Shown here piece by piece: positions 44,097 through 62,698 of a stretch of 64,000 nt of DNA (the first letter of the stretch is position 1; every line of letters starts with the position of its first letter). The stretch lies in the NCBI GenBank assembly GCA_030650425.1, contig JAUSED010000008.1, positions 68,554 through 132,553 on the forward strand, given 5' to 3'. This stretch comes from Candidatus Omnitrophota bacterium (GTDB taxonomy: Bacteria > Omnitrophota > Gorgyraeia > Gygaellales > Profunditerraquicolaceae). The position numbers and the translations under genes were made by a program. The notes under the pieces are model-generated. The model did no database searches, was not told where the DNA came from, and saw only the letters and a program-made list of their open reading frames with translations.

Positions 44097-44837
44097 ATGG
44101 CTGAACAAATTCTGATTGTAGCAGCTCATCCGGATGATGAAGTGATAGGTTGCGGGGGAGCGATCGCTTGGCATTCCGCACGTGGAGATTATGTTCGGAT
44201 GATAATTATGGCGGATGGCGTAACATCAAGAAGCTACAATCCCGATATTCCGGTGCCTCGCGCAGAGGAGTTGTTGGTTTATCAGCAGGCTATTGAGCGT
44301 CGTAAAACCGAGTGCCGGGACGCGGCATCCCTTCTCGGCGTCAAGAAAAACGCTGTTTATTTCTTAGATCTGGCGGATCAACGTTTGGATACATATCCGT
44401 TTCTTGATTTGGTAAAACATATCGAGAAGGTCAAGGGGATTTTTTCTCCGACGCTGGTTTACACACATTTTTTCGGCGATCTTAATTTGGACCATCGTTT
44501 GACTGCTCAGGCTGTGTTGACCGCGTTCCGTCCGCGATTAGGAACTACTGCGGCAGTGAAGCTTTTTGAGGTCTATGAGACAACAAGAATTTCTAATCAG
44601 GCAGGTTATGGTGATTTTGTTCCGGATTATTTATTGGATATTTCGCCGTTTTGGGAGCTTAAGCAGAAGGCTCTTAGTGTTTATGTGAGTGAGAGTTGCA
44701 AGTATCCTCATTTCCGTTCTGTCCAGGCCTTGAGGGAACGGGCTGCTTTTTGGGGGGAGCGATCCGGCGTAAAATATGGAGAGGCTTTTTTGACCCGTTA
44801 CGCAGCTAGTGAGGAAATAGCTTATGGGAAAAGGTAA
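44097..44837 (+). CDS. PIG-L/LmbE-family N-deacetylase
   Basis: ILIVAAHPDDEVIGCGG signature. Confidence 0.8.
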   Translation: MAEQILIVAAHPDDEVIGCGGAIAWHSARGDYVRMIIMADGVTSRSYNPDIPVPRAEELLVYQQAIERRKTECRDAASLLGVKKNAVYFLDLADQRLDTYPFLDLVKHIEKVKGIFSPTLVYTHFFGDLNLDHRLTAQAVLTAFRPRLGTTAAVKLFEVYETTRISNQAGYGDFVPDYLLDISPFWELKQKALSVYVSESCKYPHFRSVQALRERAAFWGERSGVKYGEAFLTRYAASEEIAYGKR

Positions 44838-45327
44838 GGTGTCTTTAACAGGCGCGATAGGAGGCGGTGTACGTTTAAGGCCGGCTCGGGAAAGTGACGC
44901 GGAGTTTCTTTTTAAGCTGCGTAACGATCCTGAGGTTAGGCGCAGCGCCTTTAATGAGAAGCCCCTTGTATGGGAGGAGCATTTAAGTTGGATGGCAAAT
45001 AAATTGGCATCGCATAAGACAACCATCTTCATTGCCGAAGTGGAGGGGCAGCCTGCGGGCCAGGTGCGTTTCGATCTCGAAGAAGAGGGGGCGGTTGTGG
45101 ATATTACTTTAGCGCAACATCTGCGTGGTCGCGGGCTCGGGACGATTCTTCTGGAGCAAGGGGTCGGTCATTTTATTACGATGATGCCGGGAGTTAGTAT
45201 TGTGGCTTATGTGAAGAAAGAAAACACCCCGTCGTTGAGATGCTTTAAGAAGGCGGGATTCAGGGATGAGGGGGCTGTTATTATTCAGGGAACATCTTGT
45301 CACCGGATGCTTTTTTTATCTGATTAA
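44824..45327 (+). CDS. GNAT-family N-acyltransferase
   Basis: GNAT motif A LRGRGLGTILLE. 167 aa. Overlaps the deacetylase stop. Confidence 0.65.
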   Translation: MGKGKVSLTGAIGGGVRLRPARESDAEFLFKLRNDPEVRRSAFNEKPLVWEEHLSWMANKLASHKTTIFIAEVEGQPAGQVRFDLEEEGAVVDITLAQHLRGRGLGTILLEQGVGHFITMMPGVSIVAYVKKENTPSLRCFKKAGFRDEGAVIIQGTSCHRMLFLSD

Positions 45328-45363
45328 ACGGTTTTATTTAGTTGTAATAGGTTGGTGTCAAAA

Positions 45364-50060: not shown

Positions 50061-52008
50061 AGCGGGATTTTCTATGTTAGAGCGGCGTATCATTATCTTT
50101 GAACGTTGTTATGGTTGGGCGTTTTGGTTTTTAATTTGGAATATCATACTGGGGCGGCGGGCCTACGTGGTAGATCCGTATTGGGCATATCATCATGTTC
50201 GAACGCCTATTCGGGGTTTTCCACATTCTTTGCCCGCATTTGTTAAAATAATGGTTAAGACCGGCTGGGTTAAGGTTTTAACCGTTGAAGAGTTGGGATG
50301 CCGCAGACATATTATTGAGGCGACGGAGCAAGCTGTGCGTTATTGTGAAAAGGCCGGAGATGTTTTTCAGGCCGAAGTCCGCAATAAAGATTTTTTAAGT
50401 TTCTATAAGGCTATTTTGGGCGATGCGGTGGTTGAGCGAACGATTAAGAAATCGGTGTGTAATGCCTTGGCTGAGTTTTTGTCTGTAAGGCTTTTGTTGA
50501 AGGCGCTTAGGAAGTGTTTTGGATCAAAAGAGTTTATGTTTATTCCGGCTTATAATGCGAGGCAGTATTTATTTTTTGAAAAGATATGGCCTAAATTGGA
50601 GCCTGATCATCCGGAGGCCGCGTTTAGATTCTCTCGGTTGACTTTGTGGTTTGATACCGTAGCATTTGGTTTTATTTTGTGTATGGATATCGGACGAGGT
50701 TTGGTCAAAGCGTTCATATTGTTCGCAAACAGGATCTGCCGGCGCGGACTTGTTCCGAGAGATGCCGTATGCGGCGTTTCTTTAGTTTCACTTGCCCGGC
50801 AGATAGGCGATGCCCAGAAATCTCTTAGCTTTCTTGTTGATGGCGCGCTGATCCGCCGAGAGGATACGATTATTTTCAATTACGCGAAGTGCGGCCCTCG
50901 AAAGAAGGCGTTTTTGTCCCGGAAGTTCCCAAACATTGTGCATATGCAAGACGCGGGCATAAGCTGGAGTGATTTTTTAACCTGCTTGAATGGCGCGCGT
51001 TCGGCGTTAAGAGGTTTTTCTTTAGGTGTGGGGATTGTTTATAAGGATTTGTCTTTGGTAATGGAGAATTATTTTGTCTGGAAGCAGATCGGAGAACGCA
51101 TTAGGCTTAGAAACTTTGTGACCCATTGCGACTTTGGCGCTTCGCAACTCGGGCGTAATTTGGCTTTGCGTGAGAAAGGCGTGAGGACATGGTTGTTTAT
51201 GGATTCTGCTAATCAGTCCTGTAATTTTATGACTGACAACAATGTTATGGGCGCGCAGCATCCTTTTTGGTGCTATCTGGACTATGATCATTTTGTTGCC
51301 TGGACCCCTTTTTTAGCGCAGTATTTTGCTTCGCATCCGGGTAGCGCCAAGCAGTTTCACGTAACCGGATGTTTTTGGGCAGACTATATTCAACCAAGGC
51401 GCGATGCCTTTAAGGCGCTCTCCATGGGATTACAAGAGCGGCTAAAGAGAAAGAAGGTTGTGGCGGCCTTTGACTCGACCTATTCAAGAAAAGGGATGAC
51501 TTCTTATCAGGAGGGGATTGCTTTTGCGCGGCATATTCTTGCGTTAGCTGATCTGAGCGATGATCTGCTTATCTTGTGGAGAGAGAAAATTACGCGTAAG
51601 TTACATTATAAGCTGGACGATATGAGCGCGGATGAACTTTTGGCTGTGTATGCAAAAATGGATGCGCATCCTCGGATTATTAACGTAACCAGAACATTAA
51701 CCGCAGGGGATATGATTGCTGTTTCCGACCTTGTTATTTCTTTTCCGTTCACATCTACCAGTCTGGAGGCGTTAAGCGCCCATAGAAGAGCGATTTGGCA
51801 TGATCCGTTAGCTTTTTATCGCAGGAATATTTATGATGATCGGCTGGTTACGCATGGCTGGAATGAGCTTCAAGATTTAGTTGTTCGGTTACTGCGGGGA
51901 GAGGAGCTGTCATTTGGGGAGGCCGAATCGAAGGTTAGGGATCCTTATTCTGACGGCCATGCGACGAATCGGTTTAGGAGATTATTATTGCAGTCGGAGC
52001 GTGATTAA
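50053..52008 (+). CDS. large hypothetical protein with GT-B-like C-terminal block (candidate glycosyl/glycerophospho-transferase or polymerase)
   Basis: No N-terminal match; C-terminal LTAGDMIAVSDLVISFPFTSTSLEALSAHRRAIWHD resembles the TagF/GT-B donor-binding region. Start at ATG 50053 overlapping the asnB stop. Confidence 0.35.
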   Translation: MAKAGFSMLERRIIIFERCYGWAFWFLIWNIILGRRAYVVDPYWAYHHVRTPIRGFPHSLPAFVKIMVKTGWVKVLTVEELGCRRHIIEATEQAVRYCEKAGDVFQAEVRNKDFLSFYKAILGDAVVERTIKKSVCNALAEFLSVRLLLKALRKCFGSKEFMFIPAYNARQYLFFEKIWPKLEPDHPEAAFRFSRLTLWFDTVAFGFILCMDIGRGLVKAFILFANRICRRGLVPRDAVCGVSLVSLARQIGDAQKSLSFLVDGALIRREDTIIFNYAKCGPRKKAFLSRKFPNIVHMQDAGISWSDFLTCLNGARSALRGFSLGVGIVYKDLSLVMENYFVWKQIGERIRLRNFVTHCDFGASQLGRNLALREKGVRTWLFMDSANQSCNFMTDNNVMGAQHPFWCYLDYDHFVAWTPFLAQYFASHPGSAKQFHVTGCFWADYIQPRRDAFKALSMGLQERLKRKKVVAAFDSTYSRKGMTSYQEGIAFARHILALADLSDDLLILWREKITRKLHYKLDDMSADELLAVYAKMDAHPRIINVTRTLTAGDMIAVSDLVISFPFTSTSLEALSAHRRAIWHDPLAFYRRNIYDDRLVTHGWNELQDLVVRLLRGEELSFGEAESKVRDPYSDGHATNRFRRLLLQSERD

Positions 52009-52021: not shown

Positions 52022-53872
52022 ATGAAAAGAGTTGTAATAGCAAAGAATATTGACAAAAATACATTAAAGATGATTAGGGATCATCTTCCCGGGGGTAACG
52101 ATGAAAGGATCTATCTGGTATTTGGTAATCCAGATATTCATAACCTACATTCTTTAGAGGCATTGGGCTTTAAAGAGCAGTGCTTGCCTGCGCATGATGA
52201 ACAATACCGGGATAACTTTTTACGTGAATATATTGATCTTATAGGCAGCATAGGCAAAGAAAATAATATTCTTGAGTGGTGGGCAACGGATATAGCTTCT
52301 AAAAATCGTTTTACTTCCAGGATAACGGAGTTGTTATCTCATTTTTTAGACATTGTACAGACAGCCAAGGATAAGCCATTCGGGATTATGGTAGTGGTAA
52401 ATCCGGATTGGGCAATCGTTTCTTCTCTAAAGAAAGCCTGCCTAAAAGATGGCATTGGTTTTATTGCAGGTAATGGTTTTGCAGTGGAAAAAATTTTCAG
52501 TTTTACAGCTTTAAGGTTAAGAAGCCTGGCCTCTGTTATACGTAATTTTGGGAAGATAGGCATTAGATCTATCTATTGCCGTTTTATACTAGGGAAGAAG
52601 ACGCAATCCTCTGTGAAGGATAGCGGGCCATATTATGTGGTTAAGACATTCATCTACAACAGTTCTTTTTCCGAAGGGCATGATTATAAAGATAGCTTTT
52701 TCGGAAAACTACCGTATATATTAAGCAAAAACAGAAAAGTGCTCATTTTTGCTTCCGTACTCGGAAGCTATCGTTACTGTCTGCAAGAGATAAAAAAATG
52801 TAATTCGTTTAGGATTATTCCCGTAGAATATTTTATTACCTTTTTGGATTTAATTTCAGCTTTCAAGGCATTTATCTTGTCTAGGGTGGTTATAAGCGAT
52901 AAATATATGCTTAGCTGTGAAGTAGCGGGTATAATACGAAATGAGTTGGAGCGGACATGGAATGGAATACAGTATTACCAACTGTTCCATTACTGGGCTT
53001 TAAAGCGGCTGCTAAGCGGGGTAAGGGTGGATACCTTTCTTTTGACTTATGAGAATAATCCGTGGGAGAAGATGTGCATAGCCGCGTTAAGGCAGATATC
53101 GCCGGACACTTTTATCATAGGCTATCAACATACAATTGTTTCTCAGGCTTCGGCGAATATGTTCCCCAGCCGTTATGAAAATGGCATTATGCCTTTTCCT
53201 GATAAGATAGTGACGGTTGGCGAGGCCACTAAGAATATTATGCAGCGATACGGGAATTTTGGGGATGTTTCAATCCGCGCTTCATGCGGCCTCAGGTTTG
53301 AGTATCTTTTCGATCTAGGCCGGCTTGAGAGGAAAAATAATGGGAATATTCTGCTTGCGCTTGAAGGCATAAAAGATGCGCATAAACTAGTGGCTTATGT
53401 TCTCAGAGAGCTGGGAGGAAAAAGTAAGTACAACGTTAGAATCAGGACTCATCCCGCGCTTCCCTGGCAATATTTTCAGAGTAGGTGTAGATTTGACCTG
53501 GCGAAATACTCCAATTTTCATCTTTCGCCTGGAGGATTAGTAAGGGCCGACATGGAGTGGGCAGATACAGTTATATACTGGGGAAGCACTATCGCTGTTG
53601 AAGCGCTTAACCTTGGCAGGCCCGTAGTTCACTATAACACAGGCTCTATCTTAAATTATGACCCTTTATTTGAATCCTCCGATTTTAAATGGGTAGTAAA
53701 CGAAAATGTCAGTTTGACCGTTATCCTTGAAAAGATAAATAGTCTGGATGATCAGGAGTTTACTTCTGGCTGGAAAAAGGCAAAAACATATTTGGACGAC
53801 TATTTCCATCCGATCACCGAAGAAAATATGAAAGAATTTATAAAAGATGCCTCGTCAATTGGGGCAAAGTGA
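52022..53872 (+). CDS. large hypothetical protein with GT-B-like C-terminal block (second candidate transferase)
   Basis: ADMEWADTVIYWGSTIAVEALNLGRPVVHYNTG, a GT-B-type block. ATG 52022 chosen after the upstream stop. Confidence 0.35.
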   Translation: MKRVVIAKNIDKNTLKMIRDHLPGGNDERIYLVFGNPDIHNLHSLEALGFKEQCLPAHDEQYRDNFLREYIDLIGSIGKENNILEWWATDIASKNRFTSRITELLSHFLDIVQTAKDKPFGIMVVVNPDWAIVSSLKKACLKDGIGFIAGNGFAVEKIFSFTALRLRSLASVIRNFGKIGIRSIYCRFILGKKTQSSVKDSGPYYVVKTFIYNSSFSEGHDYKDSFFGKLPYILSKNRKVLIFASVLGSYRYCLQEIKKCNSFRIIPVEYFITFLDLISAFKAFILSRVVISDKYMLSCEVAGIIRNELERTWNGIQYYQLFHYWALKRLLSGVRVDTFLLTYENNPWEKMCIAALRQISPDTFIIGYQHTIVSQASANMFPSRYENGIMPFPDKIVTVGEATKNIMQRYGNFGDVSIRASCGLRFEYLFDLGRLERKNNGNILLALEGIKDAHKLVAYVLRELGGKSKYNVRIRTHPALPWQYFQSRCRFDLAKYSNFHLSPGGLVRADMEWADTVIYWGSTIAVEALNLGRPVVHYNTGSILNYDPLFESSDFKWVVNENVSLTVILEKINSLDDQEFTSGWKKAKTYLDDYFHPITEENMKEFIKDASSIGAK

Positions 53873-53879
53873 GAATAGG

Positions 53880-54962
53880 ATGCGAGAGAACAAAAAAATA
53901 TTAAAGGCTGGTATAATCGGTTACGGTTATATGGGTAAAATTCGTAAAAAGATTATTGAGTCTTCGGCGGTCCTTAAACTCGAGGGAATATGCGATATAA
54001 ATAGAGAGTTGATTACCGTTGATCAGTCTGTTAAATGCAAGATCTATGATTCTTATAAGAAACTAATCGCGTCGGATATCGACATTGTTTTTGTCTGTAC
54101 GCCTAATTCATTTTCCCCTCAGATCGTGGTTGACAGCTTGCGGGCTGGCAAACATGTTTTCTGTGAGAAACCTCCCGGAAGGACGCTTGCGGATGTAAAA
54201 CTGATCATAGAGCAGGAGAAAAAGCGCCCGGAACTTAAACTGATGTTTGGTTTTAACCATAGATATCATCCGGGAATACTCGAGGCCAGGACTATCGTTG
54301 ACAGCAAGAGATTTGGTAAAATCTTATTTTTAAAAGGGACATACGGAAAATCGGGAGGCAGGAACTATCTTCAGTCTTGGCGTAACCAAAAAGAGGTAGC
54401 AGGGGGAGGCATACTCCTTGATCAGGGAATACATATGCTTGATTTGTTTCGTTATTTCTGTGGTAATTTCAGTGAGGTAAAATGCTTTCTTTCGAAGATG
54501 TTCTGGGATACTGATGTCGAAGATAACGCCTTTATTTTTCTCCGCAACAGGTTTGGGCAGGTCGCTACCCTCCATTCTTCAGCTACATTGTGGAAACACT
54601 GTTTCAGGATAGAGATATTTCTTGAGGATGCTTACCTTATAGTATCTGGTCTTTTGTCCAAAACAGGAAGCTACGGCAGGGAAACTCTCACTATCGGCCG
54701 GAGGCAATTTGAAGACGAAACTTTCGCTTTGGGCAATCCGCGGGAAGAGGTGGTGTATTTTGACCAGGATTTATCTTGGGAGGCAGAAGTAACCAAGTTT
54801 ATCGACTATATTACCAATGATAATAAGGTGGATAATAGCTCTTCTTATGACGCGCTAAAGGTAATGGAGATAATAGAACGGGCGTATAAGAACAATTCAG
54901 TCAAAGGTTGCCCTAATCTGGCGGGAAAAGGAGATCGATTCCATGAAAAACGTAGTAATTAA
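53880..54962 (+). CDS. Gfo/Idh/MocA-family NAD(P)-dependent oxidoreductase
   Basis: KAGIIGYGYMGK; HVFCEKPP. Confidence 0.8.
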   Translation: MRENKKILKAGIIGYGYMGKIRKKIIESSAVLKLEGICDINRELITVDQSVKCKIYDSYKKLIASDIDIVFVCTPNSFSPQIVVDSLRAGKHVFCEKPPGRTLADVKLIIEQEKKRPELKLMFGFNHRYHPGILEARTIVDSKRFGKILFLKGTYGKSGGRNYLQSWRNQKEVAGGGILLDQGIHMLDLFRYFCGNFSEVKCFLSKMFWDTDVEDNAFIFLRNRFGQVATLHSSATLWKHCFRIEIFLEDAYLIVSGLLSKTGSYGRETLTIGRRQFEDETFALGNPREEVVYFDQDLSWEAEVTKFIDYITNDNKVDNSSSYDALKVMEIIERAYKNNSVKGCPNLAGKGDRFHEKRSN

Positions 54963-55971
54963 TGAGACCGGAAAGGCGTCTGAGTTTAAGCCGGATGTAA
55001 TATTTGAAAAATACCTGAAGCTGGCTGAAAAAGATGTAAGGGATGAATTTAGTCAGAAAAGAAACCTGGCACTCTCAAATTGTCCTGCCTGCAGGTCGAA
55101 AAAGAAAAGAATCGTTTTTTCCCATTTTGGGTTTGAATATGCGGAGTGTTTGGCTTGTGACAGTGTCTATATGAACCCGCGTCCCCTAGACGCAAAGATT
55201 AAAAAACACTACCTTGAATCGGCTTCAGCCAGTTTTTGGCGGAATACGCTTTCAAAAAAGACTGAAGGTAAAAGAAAAGAAAAGATTTACGAAAAACGAT
55301 TCCAGTGGTTCAGTGATATTGCCCAAAACCACTTACCTTGCGCCACCACGATTGCTGATTTTAATTCAAAAGACCCGGAATACACCAAGGAATTCCTGCA
55401 AAACGGTTATTTTAAGCGCAAAATAGTGATTAATCCATATTTTAATATCTTAGCGTTGGATAAGTTTAACGTAGACGCAAGCAGCTACCCGGTGATAGAA
55501 GAGCTTGCTGATTCGCTTGAGGATAGAGGGATGGTTGATGTTGCCTGTGCGTTTGAAGCTATAGATTGTTTTGCGGATGTTGAGCTCTTACTTAAGACTA
55601 TTAATGCTTTGCTATGCAAGGGCGGCTTGTGTTTTGTGACTACTATTTCAATCAGTGGGTTTGATCTTCAGGTTTTGTGGGGAAATTCAACGAGTATATT
55701 CCCGCCTGACAGGATTAATGTCTTTTCCCGAAAAGGACTTGAGCTATTGTTTAAACGGCATGGTTTTGATATAATAGAATATAGTACGCCCGGTTTCCTG
55801 GATTTAGATATAGTTAAAAACGCGCTAAAGAAAGATTCATCTATTGAACTGCCAAGATTCGTCAGGACTATTCTTAAGAATGGCGATGATCAAGTCTATC
55901 AGGATTTTCAGGAGTTTTTGCAGTTAAGCAAACTCAGCTCATTCGTTAGAATAGTGCTTAAGAAAAAATAA
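54943..55971 (+). CDS. putative methyltransferase with N-terminal Zn-ribbon (CPAC...CLAC)
   Basis: Zn-ribbon followed by a Rossmann-like MT-like core. 342 aa. Confidence 0.4.
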   Translation: MKNVVINETGKASEFKPDVIFEKYLKLAEKDVRDEFSQKRNLALSNCPACRSKKKRIVFSHFGFEYAECLACDSVYMNPRPLDAKIKKHYLESASASFWRNTLSKKTEGKRKEKIYEKRFQWFSDIAQNHLPCATTIADFNSKDPEYTKEFLQNGYFKRKIVINPYFNILALDKFNVDASSYPVIEELADSLEDRGMVDVACAFEAIDCFADVELLLKTINALLCKGGLCFVTTISISGFDLQVLWGNSTSIFPPDRINVFSRKGLELLFKRHGFDIIEYSTPGFLDLDIVKNALKKDSSIELPRFVRTILKNGDDQVYQDFQEFLQLSKLSSFVRIVLKKK

Positions 55972-55981
55972 GAGGAGAAAT

Positions 55982-56584
55982 ATGGCATACGTCGAGCAGT
56001 ATCTAAAAGAGGTAACGGAAATAGCGCAGGGCATAAACGTAGTTGATATTGAAAAAATAATAAAAGTATTACTGCAAGTAAAACAAGATAATGGCCGTAT
56101 TTTCTTTTTGGGAGTGGGCGGCAGCGCAGGGAACGCATCGCATGCGGTAAACGATTTCAGGAAACTTGCTGGATTTGAGGCGTATTCGCCTGTTGACAAT
56201 GTATCTGAGCTTATGGCTAGGACAAATGACGAGGGTTGGGATACGGTTTTTTCGGAATGGCTAAAAGGTAGCCGTTTGCGTAAAGAGGATGCGGTTTTTG
56301 TTTTTTCAGTCGGGGGCGGTAACGCTGAAAAAAACATAAGCAAAAATCTGGTGACGGCGCTTGAATATGCCAAATCGGTCAAAGCAAAAATTTTAGGTAT
56401 CATAGGCAGGGATGGCGGATTTACTGCTCAGGTCGCGGACGCCTGTGTTATAGTTCCTACGGTCAATTCCAACACGGTTACTCCTCACTCCGAGGCTTTC
56501 CAGGGTGTGATATGGCATCTGATAGTATCAGACTCCAGGCTTAGAGTTGTTGAGAACAAATGGGAGTCCTTTAACAAAAAATAA
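55982..56584 (+). CDS. SIS-domain sugar-phosphate isomerase (second GmhA-like copy)
   Basis: IFFLGVGGSAGNASHAVNDF...VFVFSVGGGN. Confidence 0.7.
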   Translation: MAYVEQYLKEVTEIAQGINVVDIEKIIKVLLQVKQDNGRIFFLGVGGSAGNASHAVNDFRKLAGFEAYSPVDNVSELMARTNDEGWDTVFSEWLKGSRLRKEDAVFVFSVGGGNAEKNISKNLVTALEYAKSVKAKILGIIGRDGGFTAQVADACVIVPTVNSNTVTPHSEAFQGVIWHLIVSDSRLRVVENKWESFNKK

Positions 56585-56596
56585 GGAGTTGAATAA

Positions 56597-57283
56597 ATGG
56601 CGATCTTCTTGGATACGGGAAATATTAAAGAGGTAGAAAGATTCATGAAAATGGGTATTATCCGCGGTGTGACTACTAATCCGACCATATTGTTTAAGGC
56701 CGGGGTAACGTCAGGTAATCAAGGAATTAAGTCTAGGTCTATTGAGATCTCGAAGATAATAGCGCCCTATCCTTTGTCTGTCGAGGTCACGACTAACGAT
56801 TATGACAAGATGATCGAACAGGCTCAGGAATATTCAGGATGGGCTAAGAATATTAACGTGAAGATCACTATCCACGGCCCAAAGGGCGAGACCGAAAACC
56901 TTGAAGCTATACACGAGCTTTCATCAAAATATAAGATGAGCATTAACGCGACCGCTATGATGAGCGCCCAGCAATGCTTGCTTGCTGCAATGGCAGGCGC
57001 TGAGTATGTGTCTATTTTTGGAGGTAGGGTTAATAATATGGGCTATAATTCTTGTTCCGAGATCAGCAAGCTCAGGGTTGTGCTTGACAGGCAGCAGTTA
57101 ACCTCAAAGATTATAGTAGGTTCTACTAGGGAGGTTCTTAATATCATAGAGTGGCTGGAGGCTGGCGCGGATATTGTCACCGTTTTGCCGGAGATACTTA
57201 ACGGCATGATTGTTCATCCTTATTCAAAGGAGACTGTGCAGATGTTTCTGGAAGACGCAGCCAAGACAGAAAGGTTGCTCTAA
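56597..57283 (+). CDS. transaldolase-family protein (Fsa/TalC-type)
   Basis: IFLDTGNIKEV...GVTTNPTIL, the Fsa/TalC N-terminus. 228 aa. Confidence 0.8.
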   Translation: MAIFLDTGNIKEVERFMKMGIIRGVTTNPTILFKAGVTSGNQGIKSRSIEISKIIAPYPLSVEVTTNDYDKMIEQAQEYSGWAKNINVKITIHGPKGETENLEAIHELSSKYKMSINATAMMSAQQCLLAAMAGAEYVSIFGGRVNNMGYNSCSEISKLRVVLDRQQLTSKIIVGSTREVLNIIEWLEAGADIVTVLPEILNGMIVHPYSKETVQMFLEDAAKTERLL

Positions 57284-57297
57284 AAAAGGGGATTAAG

Positions 57298-58086
57298 ATG
57301 CTTGCTATGGAAAAAAGAAGATTGGTTTTAAGGACAAAATTGAGAAGTCGCAAACTGGTTTTTGCGGCTTGGACATCGCTCTATCATCCTTCAATAACGG
57401 AGATCTTCAGCCATTCCGGGGTTGATTTTGTAGGGATAGATATCGAGCATAGTACTATAAGCCAGGAACAGTCTCAACGCATCATCGCAACAGCCCAGGC
57501 ATCAGATTCATTATGCCTGCCAAGGGTAGCGTCGCATAATATGGAAATGATAAAACGGTTGTTGGATTCCGGGGCTGACGGTATCATAGTCCCTATGGTT
57601 AATACTGCGCGGGAAGCCCGGGAGATCGCATCCTGGTGTAAATATCCGCCGCAGGGAAAGCGCAGTTTTGGAATTTCCCGCGGGCAGGGTTACGGTTTTG
57701 ATTTTGACAGGTATACAAAAAAATGGAATTCTGTTTCTTCGCTGATAGTCCAGATAGAATCTATTACCGGAGTTGAGAATATTGAAGATATCCTTGGCAT
57801 AGATGCTGTAGACGCAGCAATGGTAGGCCCTTATGATCTCTCAGGTTCACTTAATATTCCCGGAAAAATTGACCACCCAAAAATCCGCGAAGCGGCAAAA
57901 CGGGTTATTGCCGCGTGCAGGAAAGCCGGTAAAGCCTGTGGCACGCAGATCATAGATCCCGATGCCAGACAGATAAAAAATGCCTTAGATCAGGGGTTTA
58001 CTTTTATTGTCCTTTCCTCAGATGTTTTTTTACTCTGGAAATGGGCGCAAAGGATGCGTGGGTATACCCGTATGAATAGAAAATAA
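57298..58086 (+). CDS. HpcH/HpaI-family class II (pyruvate/2-keto-3-deoxy acid) aldolase
   Basis: IVQIESITGVENIEDILGIDAVDAAMVGPYDLSGSL block. 262 aa. Confidence 0.65.
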   Translation: MLAMEKRRLVLRTKLRSRKLVFAAWTSLYHPSITEIFSHSGVDFVGIDIEHSTISQEQSQRIIATAQASDSLCLPRVASHNMEMIKRLLDSGADGIIVPMVNTAREAREIASWCKYPPQGKRSFGISRGQGYGFDFDRYTKKWNSVSSLIVQIESITGVENIEDILGIDAVDAAMVGPYDLSGSLNIPGKIDHPKIREAAKRVIAACRKAGKACGTQIIDPDARQIKNALDQGFTFIVLSSDVFLLWKWAQRMRGYTRMNRK

Positions 58087-58089
58087 AAA

Positions 58090-58743
58090 ATGAACCATAA
58101 GGTTATTGTTTTTGATTTTGACGGCGTAATCGTTGAATCGAACGGTATCAAGCACGATGCTTTTTCCAGTATTTTTCGCCGCTACCCAAAATATTACAAA
58201 ACTATGATGTCGTTTCATTACGAACACAATCATCTGCCTCGCCAGGATAAATTCAGGTATCTGGTGAAGGAACTAATGGGTAAAACTGACTGCGAGGATG
58301 ATGTTGCCAGCCTTACTTATGAGTTTGAGGGTTTAACGCGGCAGCGAATCATTTCCTGTCCATATGTTGCGGGGGCTAGGGAATGCATAGATTATTTCTC
58401 TGATCGTCTTCCATTGTATATAGTTTCAGCCACGCCAGAAGCGGAATTAATGATTATACTTGAGGCTCGGGACATGATTAAGAAGTTTAAGGGAGTGTAT
58501 GGCCCTCCTATGACAAAGAGCCATGCTTTTAAAACGATAATTGGGCAAGAACAGGTTGCCGCCTTTCAGGTTTTGTTTGTCGGAGATAGCATTGAAGATT
58601 ATTCTGTCGCGAAAGAAGCGGGAATTTATTTTGTAGCAAGAAAAACTAAAGAAAATTCATTCGATGCGCATATACCTATTTGTAATAATCTAAGCGAATT
58701 AAAGGATTTGATTCTTGATGGTTCGAAGCCAGCATGGCGATAG
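58090..58743 (+). CDS. HAD-superfamily hydrolase (phosphatase)
   Basis: VIVFDFDGVIV (DxD motif I); LFVGDSIEDY. Confidence 0.7.
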   Translation: MNHKVIVFDFDGVIVESNGIKHDAFSSIFRRYPKYYKTMMSFHYEHNHLPRQDKFRYLVKELMGKTDCEDDVASLTYEFEGLTRQRIISCPYVAGARECIDYFSDRLPLYIVSATPEAELMIILEARDMIKKFKGVYGPPMTKSHAFKTIIGQEQVAAFQVLFVGDSIEDYSVAKEAGIYFVARKTKENSFDAHIPICNNLSELKDLILDGSKPAWR

Positions 58744-58753
58744 GAGGTACGAA

Positions 58754-59533
58754 TTGTCTGAATACATTTCAGGTCTTTTTGGTTTAGAAGGTAAGACTGC
58801 TGCTGTTATTGGGGCCGGCGGATATCTTTGTAGTGAAATGTCCAAAGCATTCTCTAAGGCCGGAGCTAGGGTGGCCGTCATTGATAAAAACCTGGAAAAT
58901 GCTAAAAAGGTTTCTGAAGCTATCCGCGCTTTTGGCGGTGATTCCATAGCTTTGGATATAGACGTCACACAAAAAGGAAGCCATGAAAAGGCGCTTGAAA
59001 CAGTGCTTAAGAAATTCAAGACTATAGATATCCTGGTTAATGGCGCGGGGATAAATGCTCCTACTAAGTTTTTTGAGATAAGCCTGCAGGAATGGGAGGG
59101 TATTATTGCCGTTTGTCTTACCGGCACCATGCTTGGTTGTCAGGTTTTCGGCGGCCAAATGGTAAAAGAGAATAAGGGGTCCATTATTAATGTATCATCT
59201 GCTTCGGCTGGGCCGCCGCTTTCGAAGGCGTTTACCTATTCCGTAGCTAAGTCCGGGGTAAAAAATCTTACCCAGAATCTGGCCCGCGAATGGGCTCCTT
59301 ACAATGTAAGGGTTAATGCTCTTTGTCCGGGATTTTTTCCGACCGAATGGAGTAAAAATAATTTTATTGACGTACACAGAGAAAAGGCTATATTAGAACA
59401 TACTCCAATGAAAAGGTATGGAAGGCCTGAAGAGTTAGTAGGAGCAGTGCTTTGGCTTTCTTCTGAGTCTGCCAGTTTTGTCACGGGCGCAGAGATAAAA
59501 GTGGATGGCGGATTTTCCTGCATGACTATATAG
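58754..59533 (+). CDS. SDR-family oxidoreductase (FabG-like)
   Basis: KTAAVIGAGGYLC; YSVAKSGV (YxxxK). TTG start with AGGAGG RBS 6 nt upstream. Confidence 0.7.
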   Translation: MSEYISGLFGLEGKTAAVIGAGGYLCSEMSKAFSKAGARVAVIDKNLENAKKVSEAIRAFGGDSIALDIDVTQKGSHEKALETVLKKFKTIDILVNGAGINAPTKFFEISLQEWEGIIAVCLTGTMLGCQVFGGQMVKENKGSIINVSSASAGPPLSKAFTYSVAKSGVKNLTQNLAREWAPYNVRVNALCPGFFPTEWSKNNFIDVHREKAILEHTPMKRYGRPEELVGAVLWLSSESASFVTGAEIKVDGGFSCMTI

Positions 59534-59540
59534 TTTACTT

Positions 59541-60305
59541 ATGAAAAAAAATGTTGCTGGGAAAATGGTGGTTATCACAGGCGGCAGCCGGGGCATAGGC
59601 GCTGCGATCACCAAGGCATTTTGGGAGGCCGGAGACTATGTGCTTGTCGGAGCAAGAAGATCCAACGATTTTCTTAAAGGCTTCGGAAGGAGGGTTCGTT
59701 TTAAAAAGATTGACGTGCGCTTTGAATCAGAACAGGCGGCCTTAGCGGGCACAGCCATAAAATGGAGAGGCCGAATAGATATATTTGTAAATTGCGCGGG
59801 ATTTTCCGATTGGCGCTCTGTGGATAAAGTTGATGAAAAATTCTGGAGCACAATGATCGACACGAACCTAAAGGGGGTATTTTGGGGCTGCAAGGTTGCT
59901 TCCCTCTGCCTGCCTAAAGGCGGCTGTATCATTAATATCTCAAGCCTCGCCGGAAAACGCGGCAGCGCAAACAACTCCGTTTATTGCGCGTCAAAATTTG
60001 GTGTTAATGGAATAACGCAGTCGTTGGCGAAAGAGTTGGGTCCCAGAGGGATCAGGGTAAATGCGCTATGCCCTGTCTATGTTGAGACTGAAGCCTTACA
60101 TAACGCGCTTGGCGATGAGCTATCTCCGTCAGGAGGAAAGAATATAAACGTTTTCTTGAAAGATTTTGCTAAAAGTAATGCGGCGCTGAGGCGTTTGCCT
60201 AGCGCTGAAGAGATAGCGCAACTTTGCGTTTTCTTGGCATCGGATAAAGCCTCGGCAATTACCGGCCAGTGCATTAATGTTGACTGCGGAGTTTTGCCGC
60301 AATAA
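59541..60305 (+). CDS. SDR-family oxidoreductase (FabG-like)
   Basis: MVVITGGSRGIGAAI; YCASKFGV. Confidence 0.75.
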   Translation: MKKNVAGKMVVITGGSRGIGAAITKAFWEAGDYVLVGARRSNDFLKGFGRRVRFKKIDVRFESEQAALAGTAIKWRGRIDIFVNCAGFSDWRSVDKVDEKFWSTMIDTNLKGVFWGCKVASLCLPKGGCIINISSLAGKRGSANNSVYCASKFGVNGITQSLAKELGPRGIRVNALCPVYVETEALHNALGDELSPSGGKNINVFLKDFAKSNAALRRLPSAEEIAQLCVFLASDKASAITGQCINVDCGVLPQ

Positions 60306-60319
60306 TTAAAGAGGAGAAT

Positions 60320-61093
60320 GTGCGCAAACGAAAGGTAGTAGGCGTAATACCCGCGCGGATGGAGGCATCGAGGTTTCCGGGAAAACCGCTGGCGATGATA
60401 CTCGGTTTGCCGATGATCGAGCATGTGCGCAGAAGAGTTTGCCTCTCCGATGTATTTGACGATATTTATGTAGCGACATGCAACAAAGAGATATTTGATA
60501 CGGTTAGGAAAAATGGCGGCAAGGCCTTAATGACAGCGAATACCCATCAACGTTGCACGGATAGGGTAGAAGAAGCGGTCCGTGAAATCGACGCCGACAT
60601 CGTAGTCATAATCCAGGGGGACGAGCCCCTGCTCGATCCGCATATCTTCCATAGCTTAATTGAGCCTATGTTGAGAGATAATTTTCTAAAATGCGCTAAT
60701 CTCTTATCGGTTATAAATGAGAAAAGCGACCTGGCGGATACCGATATAGTAAAGGCTGTTTTGGATGAGCAGGGTTTTGTGATGTATTATTCAAGGGCGC
60801 CGATTCCTTACCTGCGCGCGGATAAATCTCGCCCGATGTATCGTCAGACAGGATTATCGGTTTTCACAAAAAAATTTATTCAGCTATTTTCTAATTTGGC
60901 GCCTACGCCCCTTGAAAAAGCAGAATCTGTTGATTTTTTACGTATCCTTGAGCACGGTTACGAAATTAAAGGTGTCCTCTATAATAATATGACGGTTGGC
61001 ATAGACCGTCAGGATGATATTCAAAAAGTGGAAACCATCCTAAAAGCCGATCCAAAACAGTTCGGCATATATGAAAATATATTAAAGATATGA
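60320..61093 (+). CDS. 3-deoxy-manno-octulosonate cytidylyltransferase-like (CMP-Kdo synthetase family)
   Basis: VVGVIPARMEASRFPGKPLAMILGLPMIEHV matches the KdsB N-terminus. GTG start with AGGAGA RBS. Confidence 0.7.
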   Translation: MRKRKVVGVIPARMEASRFPGKPLAMILGLPMIEHVRRRVCLSDVFDDIYVATCNKEIFDTVRKNGGKALMTANTHQRCTDRVEEAVREIDADIVVIIQGDEPLLDPHIFHSLIEPMLRDNFLKCANLLSVINEKSDLADTDIVKAVLDEQGFVMYYSRAPIPYLRADKSRPMYRQTGLSVFTKKFIQLFSNLAPTPLEKAESVDFLRILEHGYEIKGVLYNNMTVGIDRQDDIQKVETILKADPKQFGIYENILKI

Positions 61094-62013
61094 AAGCGAA
61101 GATATTTGTTGCCTTGTCTTCATTTGCGGAATTTGGAAACGAGCCCTTGAAGCTATTTGAGGATAATGGGTTTGAATACTCCCTTAATTCTCTGGGAAGG
61201 CGCCTGATACAGCAGGAAATCGTCCAGCTGGGAAAAGACTGCGAAGGGATTATCGCGGGGGTTGAACCTTATGACGATTATGTGTTGGAGAGGATGCCGA
61301 AACTACGTTGTATAAGCCGCTGCGGCGTTGGAATAGATAATATAGACCTGGGGAAGGCAAAAGAAAAAGGGATTACCGTCAAAAATACCCCCGATATTGT
61401 AACCCTGCCTGTAGCTGAGTTGACGATAGGTATGATCTTTGATTTGTTGCGGAAGATATCCTATCACACTAATCTGATGAAAGCGCGCCAATGGCGGAGA
61501 AAGGCAGGCAGTTTGCTTTCAGGCAGTAAAATCGGAGTCTTGGGGTTAGGGAGGATAGGGAAAAAAGTATCTGAAATGCTCGTTGGTTTGAATGCCGTTG
61601 TTTACGGAGCCGATTTATCTCCAAACACTTCCTGGGCAGCGAAGAATAAAGTTGAAATTGTTTCTAAGGATTTTATATTAAGGGAATGTGATATCATAAC
61701 TATTCATATTGCATCACCGGAGGGGGAGGAGTTTATTCTTAGTAAAAAAGAAATCGAAGCTATGAAAAAAGGGGCTTTATTGATCAATACCTCCAGAGGT
61801 AAATTTCTTGATGAAACAGCCTTATGCGCTGCCTTGGAGTCAAATCATCTAGGCGGAGCTGCGTTAGATGTGTATTCCCAGGAGCCTTATGCTGGGCCTT
61901 TATGCGATATGGATAATGTTGTGTTAATCCCCCATCTAGGCAGTTTCACCAGAGAATCAAGAAATCAAATGGAAATAGAAGCCGTTAAAAATGCAATCAA
62001 TTTTCTTAAGTAA
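61090..62013 (+). CDS. D-isomer-specific 2-hydroxyacid dehydrogenase (NAD-binding)
   Basis: IGVLGLGRIGKKV; catalytic and NAD-binding domain layout. Confidence 0.8.
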   Translation: MKAKIFVALSSFAEFGNEPLKLFEDNGFEYSLNSLGRRLIQQEIVQLGKDCEGIIAGVEPYDDYVLERMPKLRCISRCGVGIDNIDLGKAKEKGITVKNTPDIVTLPVAELTIGMIFDLLRKISYHTNLMKARQWRRKAGSLLSGSKIGVLGLGRIGKKVSEMLVGLNAVVYGADLSPNTSWAAKNKVEIVSKDFILRECDIITIHIASPEGEEFILSKKEIEAMKKGALLINTSRGKFLDETALCAALESNHLGGAALDVYSQEPYAGPLCDMDNVVLIPHLGSFTRESRNQMEIEAVKNAINFLK

Positions 62014-62041
62014 ATTTCAAGCAGTATATTTTAAACTAAGC

Positions 62042-62698
62042 ATGTTTACGAAAAGCTTGCGGAATATTCCTGCGCAAACAAGCAAAGAAATAAATATGTT
62101 CAAGATAATTCTTGATCAATATCTAGATAGGCCTATTAAAATTTTTGAATGGGGGAGCGGATGCAGCACAATTTATTATTCAAAGTATTTAAAATCTAAA
62201 AATGCGAATTTCCAGTGGCATGCGGTTGATAATAATAAGCCTTGGTATGAAAAGGTATTAACTGATATAAAAAAAGAAAATCTGATCTCTCATATCCATC
62301 TATATTTGAAAGAATTCTTGCCATTTTGGCAGAAGCCGGGATGGGGCCAAATACCGCCTCCCTGCGCTGTTTTTAGCCCGAAGGAAGATAATGAATGGGC
62401 TTATATTCGTCTGCCTCAAGAGATGAATCAGAAATTTGATATCATTATTATTGACGCAAGGTTTCGCAGGCATTGCGTTCAGATTGCCAAGCAGGTACTC
62501 GCCCCCGGTGGGGTTGTGATTATGCATGACGCGCATAAACCGCATTATCACCAGGGATTGGAGGGTTTTCCTTTAAGGAGTTTTTACGATACTGGTTCTT
62601 GGTATCCGTTTCAAGAAAGACCCAATCAAGTTTGGGTGGGCAGTATGAAAAATCAAATTATTTTTGACGTACTAAAATCATTCGAGAAGGCTGTATGA
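62042..62698 (+). CDS. putative SAM-dependent methyltransferase-like protein (start uncertain)
   Basis: IFEWGSGCSTIYY (GxGxG-like); IIIDARF...GGVVIMHD. The ORF track extends upstream to 61991 into the previous gene, so the start is uncertain. Confidence 0.35.
   Translation: MFTKSLRNIPAQTSKEINMFKIILDQYLDRPIKIFEWGSGCSTIYYSKYLKSKNANFQWHAVDNNKPWYEKVLTDIKKENLISHIHLYLKEFLPFWQKPGWGQIPPPCAVFSPKEDNEWAYIRLPQEMNQKFDIIIIDARFRRHCVQIAKQVLAPGGVVIMHDAHKPHYHQGLEGFPLRSFYDTGSWYPFQERPNQVWVGSMKNQIIFDVLKSFEKAV

What the first reader, a model, noticed from the sequence alone, without database searches (positions are those of the whole stretch)
57298..62013. Terminal module suggesting a CMP-activated ulosonic/aldonic acid made via an HpcH-type aldolase rather than a KdsA/NeuB-type synthase
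An HpcH/HpaI class II pyruvate aldolase, a HAD phosphatase, two FabG-like SDRs, a KdsB-like CMP-Kdo-synthetase-family cytidylyltransferase and a D-2-hydroxyacid dehydrogenase are contiguous and co-directional. No KdsA (DAHP-synthase-like Kdo8P synthase) is seen. An aldolase-based condensation of pyruvate with an aldose followed by CMP activation would be a non-canonical route to a Kdo-like 3-deoxy-2-ulosonic acid. The 2-HADH and SDRs could make a 2-hydroxyacid (for example a glycerate or lactyl-type substituent).
Basis: inference. Interest (0 to 1): 0.7.

Follow-up and report, generated by a model that had tools for sequence, protein, structure and literature searches.

The report
Aldolase-based CMP-ulosonic acid gene cassette
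The six genes are real and form the back half of a conserved 10-11 gene cassette, found in many bacterial phyla and a methanogen, that most likely makes a new CMP-activated keto-sugar acid using a pyruvate aldolase where known pathways use a PEP-dependent synthase; no enzyme has been tested.

Summary
Window 57298-62013 holds six contiguous + strand genes: an HpcH/HpaI aldolase, a HAD-IA hydrolase, two SDRs, a KdsB-family cytidylyltransferase and a phosphoglycerate-dehydrogenase-like 2-hydroxyacid dehydrogenase. No KdsA-type gene is in the 64 kb.

The unit is larger than reported. A GT-B protein (52022), a GFO/IDH/MocA oxidoreductase, a methyltransferase, a GmhA-like SIS isomerase and a transaldolase precede the aldolase. 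This order recurs in about 60 genomes, including Omnitrophota, Planctomycetota, Chloroflexota, Elusimicrobiota, SAR324, cultured Kiloniella laminariae and a complete Methanoregula chromosome. The aldolase orthologues are 54-69% identical. Other HpcH proteins are 38% or less and lack the cassette.

The cytidylyltransferase passes two KdsB models and fails PseF. It keeps the catalytic motifs but carries family-specific changes at three motifs invariant in solved KdsBs.

Best reading: a self-contained route in which transaldolase and isomerase make an aldose phosphate, the aldolase adds pyruvate, HAD dephosphorylates, oxidoreductases and a methyltransferase tailor, the cytidylyltransferase adds CMP, and the GT-B protein transfers. 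The product and step order are inferred. I found no published description. New variant of a known kind; interest 0.68.

The parts
52022..53872 (+). GT-B fold glycosyltransferase-like protein (616 aa, 'unk2'). It is the candidate transferase for the cassette product.
53880..54962 (+). GFO/IDH/MocA NAD(P) sugar oxidoreductase. Its role as a tailoring enzyme is inferred.
   Evidence: Pfam PF01408, PF22725 and PF02894. Below cutoff for IolG, levoglucosan dehydrogenase and UDP-GlcNAc 3-dehydrogenase. Present in 43 of 45 loci. Start at 53880 gives 360 aa.
54943..55971 (+). SAM methyltransferase with an N-terminal zinc-ribbon-like region. It overlaps the end of GFO by 20 nt.
   Evidence: PF13489 at residues 192-279. 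Weak zinc-ribbon hit at residues 37-74. Present in 41 of 45 loci.
55982..56584 (+). Single-domain SIS protein, GmhA-like (phosphosugar ketose/aldose isomerase).
   Evidence: SIS_2 scores 35 bits. TIGR00441 gmhA scores 54.9 bits, far below its cutoff of 209. The best solved relatives are all phosphoheptose isomerases; the His of GGSxxxxxH is kept and the loop aligned to GmhA STSGNS carries a 6-residue insertion. Present in 42 of 45 loci.
56597..57283 (+). Short-type transaldolase.
   Evidence: PF00923 scores 122.5 bits. Best solved relative is Thermoplasma transaldolase 3S0C at 120 bits. The residues aligned to D6, E60, K86, N108, T110, S130, F132, R135, S167 and R169 are all kept. By my own residue numbering, Phe at 132 marks a transaldolase and Tyr would mark an F6P aldolase. 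Present in 35 of 45 loci.
57298..58086 (+). HpcH/HpaI class II (metal-dependent) pyruvate aldolase. It is the proposed C-C bond-forming enzyme.
   Evidence: PF03328 scores 123.5 bits. Scores for HpaI, GarL and RhmA equivalogs are 130-146 bits against cutoffs of 369-441. Best solved relative is YfaU, 2VWS. D48, H51, R76, E154 and D180 are invariant in 16 orthologues. Orthologues are 54-69% identical; other HpcH proteins are at most 38%.
58090..58743 (+). HAD-IA hydrolase. Its role as a sugar-acid phosphate phosphatase is inferred.
   Evidence: HAD_2 scores 53 bits. TIGR01549 HAD-SF-IA is above cutoff; HAD-IIIA (the KdsC type) scores 22 against 44.6. It is the least conserved component at 26-47% identity. 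Present in 38 of 45 loci.
58754..59533 (+). SDR 1, sugar-acid dehydrogenase-like.
   Evidence: adh_short_C2 scores 184 bits. The closest NCBIfam model is D-mannonate oxidoreductase (254.7 bits, cutoff 281), followed by gluconate 5-dehydrogenase and KduD. PDB hits include gluconate 5-dehydrogenase. The likely start is TTG at 58754, preceded by AGGAGG.
59541..60305 (+). SDR 2.
   Evidence: adh_short_C2 scores 175 bits. It resembles glucose 1-dehydrogenase and FabG but is below all cutoffs. Present in 37 of 45 loci.
60320..61093 (+). KdsB-family CMP-sugar-acid synthetase (cytidylyltransferase).
   Evidence: The catalytic motifs IPARxxSxRxPGKPL, QGDEP and GxD are kept. Family-specific replacements are HxSGTER to HERCTDR, RHIGIYAY to YRQTGxSAF, and ExLEQLR to ESxDFxR. 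Public databases annotate it as 3-deoxy-manno-octulosonate cytidylyltransferase.
61090..62013 (+). D-2-hydroxyacid dehydrogenase, short phosphoglycerate-dehydrogenase-like. It overlaps the stop of the cytidylyltransferase gene by 4 nt.
   Evidence: Best solved relative is P. horikoshii PGDH 1WWK at 186 bits. Present in 36 of 45 loci. It is retained in the minimal variant L055 together with the aldolase and cytidylyltransferase.
61991..62698 (+). Methyltransf_24 protein. It is an accessory component of the cassette.
   Evidence: PF13578 scores 28 bits. It follows the dehydrogenase in only 5 of 45 full loci.

Best explanation
Window 52022-62013 (perhaps to 62698) is one copy of a horizontally spread cassette. 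It most likely encodes a self-contained pathway to a CMP-activated 2-keto, probably 3-deoxy, sugar acid that is not Kdo.

Proposed order of steps, all inferred:
1. The transaldolase builds or supplies a ketose phosphate. Sedoheptulose 7-phosphate is the obvious candidate.
2. The GmhA-like SIS isomerase converts it to the aldose phosphate.
3. The HpcH class II aldolase condenses pyruvate with that aldose. This replaces the PEP-dependent KdsA or NeuB step.
4. The HAD-IA hydrolase removes the phosphate.
5. The GFO oxidoreductase, the two SDRs, the 2-hydroxyacid dehydrogenase and the methyltransferase tailor the chain by epimerisation, oxidation and methylation.
6. The KdsB-family enzyme attaches CMP.
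7. The adjacent GT-B protein transfers the sugar to a surface glycan.

Shown here: gene content, catalytic-residue conservation, conserved order, co-divergence of the components and wide distribution. Inferred: every substrate, the step order and the product.
For: Catalytic competence is supported for three enzymes. The aldolase keeps D48, H51, R76, E154 and D180 as invariant residues. The transaldolase keeps the full Thermoplasma transaldolase active-site set. The cytidylyltransferase keeps its P-loop, QGDEP and GxD motifs.

The order GFO-MT-SIS-TAL-HpcH-HAD-SDR-SDR-CKS-HADH recurs in about 60 genomes from many phyla. In 45 loci with 6-10 kb on both sides of the aldolase, the counts are GFO 43, MT 41, SIS 42, TAL 35, HAD 38, SDR1 38, SDR2 37, CKS 37, HADH 36 and GT-B 32. 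Identities of the components co-vary across loci, with r between 0.35 and 0.86.

SIS, TAL and HAD are lost together in L053 and L055, while HpcH, CKS and HADH stay. This fits a precursor-supply sub-module plus a condensation and activation core.

The complete cassette is on the 2.17 Mb Methanoregula chromosome CP112999.1. It also occurs in Chloroflexota/Dehalococcoidia MAGs. A truncated Uhrbacteria contig carries GFO through SDR2 but ends before any cytidylyltransferase. From general knowledge these lineages lack LPS and Kdo, so the cytidylyltransferase substrate must come from the cassette.

No KdsA is in the window, and a NeuB homologue lies within 10 kb in only 3 of 69 loci. The motifs that differ from solved KdsBs are conserved within the family. 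The neighbouring protein has a GT-B fold. Genes are tightly packed and no intergenic terminator-like site was found.
Against: Nothing here is biochemical. No acceptor, donor or product has been identified.

HpcH enzymes are best known from catabolism, and aldol reactions are reversible.

The SIS protein is only weakly GmhA-like (55 bits against a cutoff of 209), so heptose phosphate is a guess.

Four oxidoreductases have no assigned step, and the model does not explain why the PGDH-like enzyme belongs to the minimal core.

In 8 of 45 loci no cytidylyltransferase was found within 10 kb. Some of these have inserted genes that may push it out of range.

I could not search the source genome, or any other carrier genome, for kdsA elsewhere.

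Many carrier genomes are MAGs, and some of their taxonomic labels may be wrong.
Confidence: 0.6

Rival explanations
1. Same cassette logic with hydroxypyruvate as the nucleophile. The PGDH-like dehydrogenase would oxidise 3-phosphoglycerate or glycerate. The HAD would dephosphorylate where needed, giving hydroxypyruvate. The HpcH aldolase would condense it with an aldose to give a 3-hydroxy-2-ulosonic acid resembling Ko, which is then CMP-activated.
For: The dehydrogenase is closest to phosphoglycerate dehydrogenases (TIGR01327 at 205 bits; 1WWK at 186 bits). It overlaps the cytidylyltransferase gene by 4 nt. HpcH, CKS and HADH form the minimal retained trio in L055. A dedicated nucleophile-supplying enzyme would explain that trio better than pyruvate, which is abundant. 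HpcH-family hydroxyketoacid aldolases exist among the solved relatives (6R62 and others).
Against: The dehydrogenase is absent from some otherwise complete cassettes (L002, L019), and in others only a distant 28-33% match to the window dehydrogenase is present (L020, L023, L027, L039). All PGDH and glyoxylate-reductase equivalog scores are well below cutoff. I know of no sequence marker that separates pyruvate-using from hydroxypyruvate-using HpcH enzymes.
Confidence: 0.2
2. The cytidylyltransferase is an ordinary capsule-type CMP-Kdo synthetase (KpsU-like paralogue) that uses Kdo from a housekeeping KdsA elsewhere. The neighbouring aldolase, SDRs and dehydrogenase would make an unrelated sugar or a non-carbohydrate substituent such as glycerate or lactate.
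For: It passes two KdsB models. KpsU is the best solved relative. Every database calls it 3-deoxy-manno-octulosonate cytidylyltransferase. The rest of the source genome was not searched.
Against: The cassette is on a complete methanogen chromosome and in Chloroflexota MAGs. Strict synteny and co-divergence link it to the aldolase. The aldolase and cytidylyltransferase stay adjacent in the stripped-down L055 variant. Motifs invariant in solved KdsBs are replaced family-wide.
Confidence: 0.1
3. The genes form a catabolic operon for a sugar acid, with aldolase cleavage, dehydrogenases, transaldolase and isomerase feeding central metabolism.
For: HpcH, KduD-like and gluconate-5-dehydrogenase-like SDRs, 2-HADH, transaldolase and SIS are all common in sugar-acid catabolism.
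Against: No cassette gene was identified as a transporter, kinase or dehydratase, and no regulator gene lies inside the window cassette. A cytidylyltransferase, methyltransferases and a GT-B protein are integral parts. The cassette is always embedded in glycan-biosynthesis islands.
Confidence: 0.03

Closest known systems
Kdo pathway (KdsD, KdsA, KdsC, KdsB)
   Same: The overall logic matches: a SIS isomerase makes an aldose phosphate, a three-carbon unit is added to give a 2-keto acid phosphate, a HAD phosphatase acts, and a KdsB-family enzyme attaches CMP. The cytidylyltransferase scores above two curated KdsB cutoffs.
   Different: There is no KdsA. An HpcH class II aldolase, presumably with pyruvate as donor, stands in its place. 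The SIS protein is GmhA-like without CBS domains. The HAD is type IA, not IIIA. A transaldolase, four oxidoreductases and one or two methyltransferases are added. Three motifs invariant in solved KdsBs are altered in the cytidylyltransferase. The cassette occurs in an archaeon.
Nonulosonic acid pathways (NeuB/PseI/LegI with NeuA/PseF/LegF) and the Kdn pathway
   Same: Both are mobile, tailoring-rich cassettes in surface-glycan islands that end in a CMP-activated 2-keto-3-deoxy acid. Such a module lies in the same window at 40327-43083.
   Different: The cassette has no NeuB-type synthase. Its cytidylyltransferase is KdsB-type (PseF 27 bits against a cutoff of 205.7). It has no nucleotide-sugar dehydratase, aminotransferase or N-acetyltransferase, so the precursor is a sugar phosphate and not a UDP- or GDP-sugar.
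2-keto-3-deoxy sugar acid aldolases of the HpcH family (YfaU/RhmA, GarL, HpaI)
   Same: The fold, the metal ligands and the catalytic Arg, His and Asp are shared. YfaU, a sugar-acid aldolase, is the closest solved relative.
   Different: These enzymes are catabolic. The cassette aldolase scores 130-146 bits against equivalog cutoffs of 369-441. It forms a separate orthologue group and sits in a biosynthetic context.
Heptose phosphate supply (GmhA with pentose-phosphate enzymes) in heptose glycan clusters
   Same: A GmhA-like SIS protein is paired with a sedoheptulose-7-phosphate-forming enzyme. The same window holds a second such pairing, SIS 14272 with a split transketolase at 15939/16784.
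   Different: The cassette has no heptose kinase or nucleotidyltransferase (HldE/HddA/HddC type). Any heptose phosphate could therefore not be activated as an ADP- or GDP-heptose by the cassette itself.

Membership tests
KdsB / CMP-Kdo synthetase | Scores above the curated family HMM cutoff | tested here: met
   NF009905 scores 263.8 against 255. NF003952 scores 245.4 against 193. TIGR00466 scores 159.5 against 155.2.
KdsB / CMP-Kdo synthetase | Catalytic motifs: N-terminal PARxxSxRxPGKPL, QGDEP aspartate, C-terminal GxD aspartate | tested here: met
   All three are present in the window protein. The P-loop and QGD(E) core are kept across the cassette orthologues; the second cassette subtype has QGDE(I/L) and GIN in place of GxD.
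KdsB / CMP-Kdo synthetase | Motifs invariant in the solved KdsBs compared here (HxSGTER, RH[IV]GIYAY, ExLEQLR); the last two lie in or beside the C-terminal domain that PMC3149649 assigns to Kdo binding | tested here: not met
   They are replaced by HERCTDR, YRQTGxSAF and ESxDFxR, and the replacements are conserved in the main cassette subtype. Which of these residues contact Kdo was not verified here.
KdsB / CMP-Kdo synthetase | Activity with Kdo and CTP | not testable with these tools
   An enzyme assay is needed.
Canonical Kdo pathway | KdsA (Kdo8P synthase, DAHP_synth_1) | tested here: not met
   None found among the 60 window ORFs of at least 150 aa that were scanned. The rest of the genome was not searched.
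Canonical Kdo pathway | KdsD (SIS plus CBS) and KdsC (HAD-IIIA) | tested here: not met
   The SIS protein is GmhA-like with a single domain. The HAD is type IA; TIGR01662 (IIIA) scores 22 against 44.6.
HpcH/HpaI class II aldolase superfamily | PF03328 above the gathering score, with metal ligands and catalytic Arg/His/Asp | tested here: met
   123.5 bits against 25. D48, H51, R76, E154 and D180 are invariant.
HpaI, GarL or RhmA equivalogs (catabolic aldolases) | Equivalog HMM cutoff | tested here: not met
   146 against 369, 140 against 407, and 130 against 441.
NulO pathway (NeuB with PseF/NeuA/LegF) | NeuB-family synthase and NulO-type cytidylyltransferase inside the unit | tested here: not met
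   The cassette has no NeuB gene. PseF scores 27 against 205.7. A NeuB homologue lies within 10 kb in only 3 of 69 loci.
Transaldolase, short type | Schiff-base Lys, catalytic Glu and Asp, Phe (not Tyr) at the FSA-discriminating position, phosphate-binding Arg and Ser | tested here: met
   Alignment to 3S0C. Residue numbering and roles are my own reading of that alignment together with general knowledge. The TIGR00875 score of 145 is below its equivalog cutoff of 246.
GmhA (sedoheptulose 7-phosphate isomerase) | Equivalog HMM cutoff and conserved phosphate-binding loop | tested here: not met
   54.9 against 209.45. The loop aligned to STSGNS carries a 6-residue insertion. The protein is related but is not an equivalog.

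The most novel reading that the evidence does not exclude
The cassette makes a sugar class not yet described. One option is a ten-carbon 3-deoxy-2-ulosonic acid built from heptose 7-phosphate plus pyruvate. The other is a 3-hydroxy, Ko-like ulosonic acid built from hydroxypyruvate. In either case it would be methylated and redox-tailored, CMP-activated, and displayed on cell surfaces across more than ten bacterial phyla and in methanogenic archaea. It would be the first ulosonic acid pathway whose chain is built by a class II aldolase instead of a PEP-dependent synthase.
Probability: 0.35. Interest if true: 0.85.

Novelty: new variant of a known kind. Interest (0 to 1): 0.68.

Why it matters
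From general knowledge, every characterised CMP-activated keto-sugar acid gets its chain from a PEP-dependent synthase of the KdsA or NeuB type. These include Kdo, Kdn, sialic, legionaminic, pseudaminic and related acids. Genome mining and annotation rely on those two markers.

A widespread aldolase-based route would have three consequences:
- A whole class of surface sugars is invisible to current searches.
- Thousands of database entries named '3-deoxy-manno-octulosonate cytidylyltransferase' are probably misnamed, including entries in organisms that are not known to make Kdo.
- Unassigned CMP-linked keto acids seen by mass spectrometry in environmental microbes (bioRxiv 10.64898/2026.04.20.719630) gain a candidate genetic origin.

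The enzymes would also be useful biocatalysts, because pyruvate is a cheaper donor than PEP. The hypothesis is directly testable. All the enzymes are small and lack predicted membrane or export domains in the scans run here, and a cultured carrier exists (Kiloniella laminariae, L023).

Tried and rejected
- Literature. Six full-text searches combined HpcH or HpaI with cytidylyltransferase, KdsB, CMP-Kdo, ulosonic acid, transaldolase or higher-carbon ulosonic names. No paper describes this cassette. The one paper containing both HpcH and cytidylyltransferase is a Halomonas genome survey.
- Kdo-contact residues. I tried to obtain them from PMC3149649 and PMC9535733. Only the domain-level assignment is given there. 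The JBC structure paper is not held. The altered motifs are therefore reported as differences from solved KdsBs, not as proven contact residues.
- Plasmids. tblastn against PLSDB found no orthologue; the best hit is 38.6% identical.
- Viruses. A scan of IMG/VR found no relative.
- Promoters and terminators. The scan found nothing above shuffled expectation and nothing in the intergenic gaps. This fits co-transcription but does not prove it.
- NeuB as the source of the cytidylyltransferase substrate. I rejected this because NeuB is rarely near the cassette (3 of 69 loci) and has its own cytidylyltransferase in this window.
- A Pse-like route with the GT-B protein acting as a PseG-type hydrolase. 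PseB and DegT genes flank some subtype-B cassettes, but they are not core genes and this route would not explain SIS, TAL or HAD.
- Chain length. I could not resolve it from sequence.

Full report
**1. The observation**

The window is a 64 kb glycan-biosynthesis island. Sixty of its 61 ORFs of at least 150 aa are on the + strand. Pfam and NCBIfam confirm each assignment:
- 57298: HpcH_HpaI aldolase
- 58090: HAD-IA hydrolase
- 58715/58754 and 59541: two classical SDRs
- 60320: CTP_transf_3 cytidylyltransferase
- 61090: D-2-hydroxyacid dehydrogenase

The cytidylyltransferase scores above three curated KdsB models (NF009905 263.8/255, NF003952 245.4/193 and TIGR00466 159.5/155.2). It scores only 27 bits on PseF. 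All 13 of its solved relatives are CMP-Kdo synthetases, and E. coli K5 KpsU is the best.

I scanned all 60 complete ORFs of at least 150 aa against Pfam. None has a KdsA/DAHP-synthase domain. The only PEP-dependent synthase is a divergent NeuB at 42049-43083. It belongs to a separate PseG/NeuB/cytidylyltransferase module.

The module is not terminal. A Methyltransf_24 gene and a B12-radical SAM gene follow it, and another assembly of the same locus continues further.

**2. The real unit is larger and strongly conserved**

The aldolase is 100% identical to a protein of a Candidatus Omnitrophota MAG. It has thousands of close relatives in metagenomes, and the top 120 are 64-86% identical. Neighbourhoods of two distant orthologues showed the same gene order. 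These were the 684 kb contig of GCA_004196255.1 and a SAR324 MAG.

A scan of one genome per GTDB species returned 67 orthologous loci at 54-69% identity. It also returned 13 loci with ordinary HpcH paralogues at no more than 37%. BLAST and HMM censuses of those loci gave a consistent order:

(GT-B protein) - GFO/IDH/MocA oxidoreductase - methyltransferase - SIS - transaldolase - HpcH - HAD - SDR - SDR - cytidylyltransferase - 2-hydroxyacid dehydrogenase

The paralogue loci have none of this.

| Component | Present in 45 loci with 6-10 kb on both sides |
|---|---|
| GFO oxidoreductase | 43 |
| Methyltransferase (MT23) | 41 |
| SIS isomerase | 42 |
| Transaldolase | 35 |
| HAD | 38 |
| SDR1 | 38 |
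| SDR2 | 37 |
| Cytidylyltransferase | 37 |
| 2-hydroxyacid dehydrogenase | 36 |
| GT-B protein | 32 |
| Methyltransf_24 | 5 |

Percent identities of the components co-vary across loci, with r from 0.35 to 0.86. Two cassette subtypes are visible.

Carriers include Omnitrophota, Planctomycetota, Chloroflexota, Elusimicrobiota, SAR324, Thermodesulfobacteriota, Bdellovibrionota and Acidobacteriota. They also include the alphaproteobacteria Kiloniella laminariae (a cultured strain) and Magnetovibrio, plus Halopseudomonas and Pseudodesulfovibrio. A truncated contig from a Candidatus Uhrbacteria MAG carries GFO through SDR2. The cassette also sits on the complete 2.17 Mb chromosome of a Methanoregula archaeon. 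I found no orthologue on PLSDB plasmids or in IMG/VR viral contigs.

**3. The individual proteins**

- Aldolase. D48, H51, R76, E154 and D180 are invariant in 16 orthologues. In the alignments to YfaU, HpaI and GarL they fall at the positions I take, from general knowledge, to be the catalytic Asp/His/Arg and the two metal ligands. The sugar-acid aldolase YfaU is the closest solved relative. Scores on the HpaI, GarL and RhmA equivalog models are about a third of their cutoffs.
- Transaldolase. It aligns end to end with Thermoplasma transaldolase. It keeps the residues aligned to D6, E60, K86, N108, T110, S130, F132, R135, S167 and R169. The numbering is my own count on that alignment. By general knowledge, Glu60 with Phe132 marks a true transaldolase and not a fructose-6-phosphate aldolase.
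- SIS protein. It resembles only phosphoheptose isomerases, and weakly. The His of the GGSxxxxxH motif is kept, and the loop aligned to the GmhA STSGNS motif has an insertion.
- HAD. It is type IA and not the IIIA type of KdsC.
- SDR1. It is nearest to D-mannonate oxidoreductase, gluconate 5-dehydrogenase and KduD, which are sugar-acid enzymes.
- 2-hydroxyacid dehydrogenase. It is nearest to short phosphoglycerate dehydrogenases.
- Cytidylyltransferase. It keeps the P-loop, QGDEP and GxD motifs. Three motifs invariant in the solved KdsBs are replaced, and the replacements are conserved in the main cassette subtype: HxSGTER becomes HERCTDR, RHIGIYAY becomes YRQTGxSAF, and ExLEQLR becomes ESxDFxR. 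The last two lie in or beside the C-terminal domain that the Aquifex KdsB paper assigns to Kdo binding (PMC3149649). I could not verify which residues contact Kdo.

**4. Most likely mechanism**

The cassette has a functional counterpart for each step of the Kdo pathway except KdsA. The SIS isomerase stands for KdsD, the HAD for KdsC and the KdsB-family enzyme for KdsB. An HpcH aldolase occupies the position of the C-C bond-forming enzyme.

I therefore propose these steps, all inferred:
1. The transaldolase and SIS protein make an aldose phosphate.
2. The aldolase adds pyruvate.
3. The HAD removes the phosphate.
4. The oxidoreductases and methyltransferase tailor the product.
5. The cytidylyltransferase activates it.
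6. The GT-B protein transfers it.

Three observations beyond synteny support this. First, SIS, TAL and HAD disappear together in L053 and L055, while the aldolase, cytidylyltransferase and dehydrogenase remain adjacent. Second, the cassette occurs in a methanogen and in Chloroflexota, which are not known to make Kdo. Third, NeuB is almost never nearby.

Chain length is unresolved. A true transaldolase paired with a GmhA-like isomerase points to a heptose 7-phosphate, which would give a ten-carbon acid. That is only an analogy.

The persistence of the PGDH-like enzyme in the minimal trio is not explained by the pyruvate model. It suggests an alternative in which hydroxypyruvate is the nucleophile and the product is a 3-hydroxy, Ko-like acid.

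**5. Rivals**

- An ordinary KpsU-type CMP-Kdo synthetase next to unrelated enzymes. This is disfavoured by the archaeal occurrence, the co-divergence and the altered motifs.
- A catabolic operon. This is disfavoured by the cytidylyltransferase, methyltransferases and GT-B protein, by the lack of any cassette gene identified as a transporter, kinase or dehydratase, and by the constant glycan-island context.

**6. Comparison with what is known**

The cassette works like the Kdo and nonulosonic acid pathways, ending in a CMP-activated 2-keto acid for surface glycans. It is a member of neither. KdsA, KdsD-type and KdsC-type proteins are absent, and so are a NeuB synthase and a NulO-type cytidylyltransferase.

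Six full-text searches found no description of it. Databases annotate its parts generically, as aldolase/citrate lyase family protein, RhmA, GarL or CMP-Kdo synthetase. [quoted passage not shown] This shows that such chemistry exists, but those acids carry N-acyl groups and no gene is linked to them.

**7. Verdict**

The central idea holds up, while the boundaries and the product need correction. This is a new variant of a known kind. Interest is 0.68 and confidence in the core mechanism is 0.6. Everything about substrates and product is inference until the assays listed under next steps are done.

Noticed in passing
window 40327-47031, with 10224-11267 and 32377-39771: A divergent nonulosonic acid module. 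It holds a cytidylyltransferase far below every equivalog cutoff, a PseG-like gene and a NeuB-like synthase (299 bits against the NeuB cutoff of 400; PseI 257 against 340). It also has two GNATs, an ATP-grasp protein, a PIG-L deacetylase, a PseB and a class-III aminotransferase. B12-binding radical SAM genes are interleaved at 34546, 38392 and 45352, with a fourth at 62698. These could C-methylate or extend the sugar, which recalls the unassigned C10 CMP-ulosonic acids reported in Magnetospirillum (bioRxiv 10.64898/2026.04.20.719630).
   Followed up: partly
window 32377-34521: A single 714 aa ORF fuses an RmlD-type reductase domain (residues 8-296) to a DegT/PseC-type aminotransferase domain (residues 324-709).
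   Followed up: no
window 12258-17704: A second heptose-type module. It has a stand-alone cytidylyltransferase-like protein and an HldE-like protein with the nucleotidyltransferase domain N-terminal and the PfkB kinase C-terminal, which from memory is the reverse of E. coli HldE. It also has a GmhA-like SIS protein, a radical SAM/SPASM protein and a split transketolase.
   Followed up: no
window 6825-7559: A papain-family (Peptidase_C1) cysteine protease gene, 56.8 bits, lies in the middle of nucleotide-sugar genes.
   Followed up: no
window 20386-23398: Two TylC3-type sugar C-methyltransferases with zinc-binding, methyltransferase and C-terminal domains, separated by a 170 aa ORF with no family match.
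   Followed up: no
window 25334-29593 and 49981-52008: Two TIGR04372-family glycosyltransferases and a 'PFTS motif' polysaccharide biosynthesis protein (TIGR04417, 110.8 bits against a cutoff of 100), none of which has a Pfam match; the 479 aa ORF at 28154-29593 also lacks a Pfam match and has only a weak NCBIfam esterase hit.
   Followed up: partly
L048, L035, L036, L060, L001 (cassette loci in other genomes): Extra tailoring genes are inserted between the conserved cassette genes. They include B12-radical SAM, FkbM methyltransferase, AsnB-like amidotransferase, GDP-mannose dehydratase with a C-methyltransferase, and a polysaccharide-deacetylase-like gene. This suggests the cassette is diversified from lineage to lineage, as nonulosonic acid clusters are.
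   Followed up: partly
L035, L049, L050, L053, L055, L057, L058, L063, L064, L066, L069: A second cassette subtype. Its cytidylyltransferase is only 34-40% identical to the window protein and has its own motif set (GILGY, IDQ(S/N)R, QGDE(I/L)L). Its GFO is about 46% identical. PseB and DegT genes lie upstream in several of these loci. It may make a different product.
   Followed up: partly
whole window: Sixty of 61 ORFs of at least 150 aa are on the + strand, and GC skew is positive in every 2 kb bin across 64 kb.
   Followed up: no
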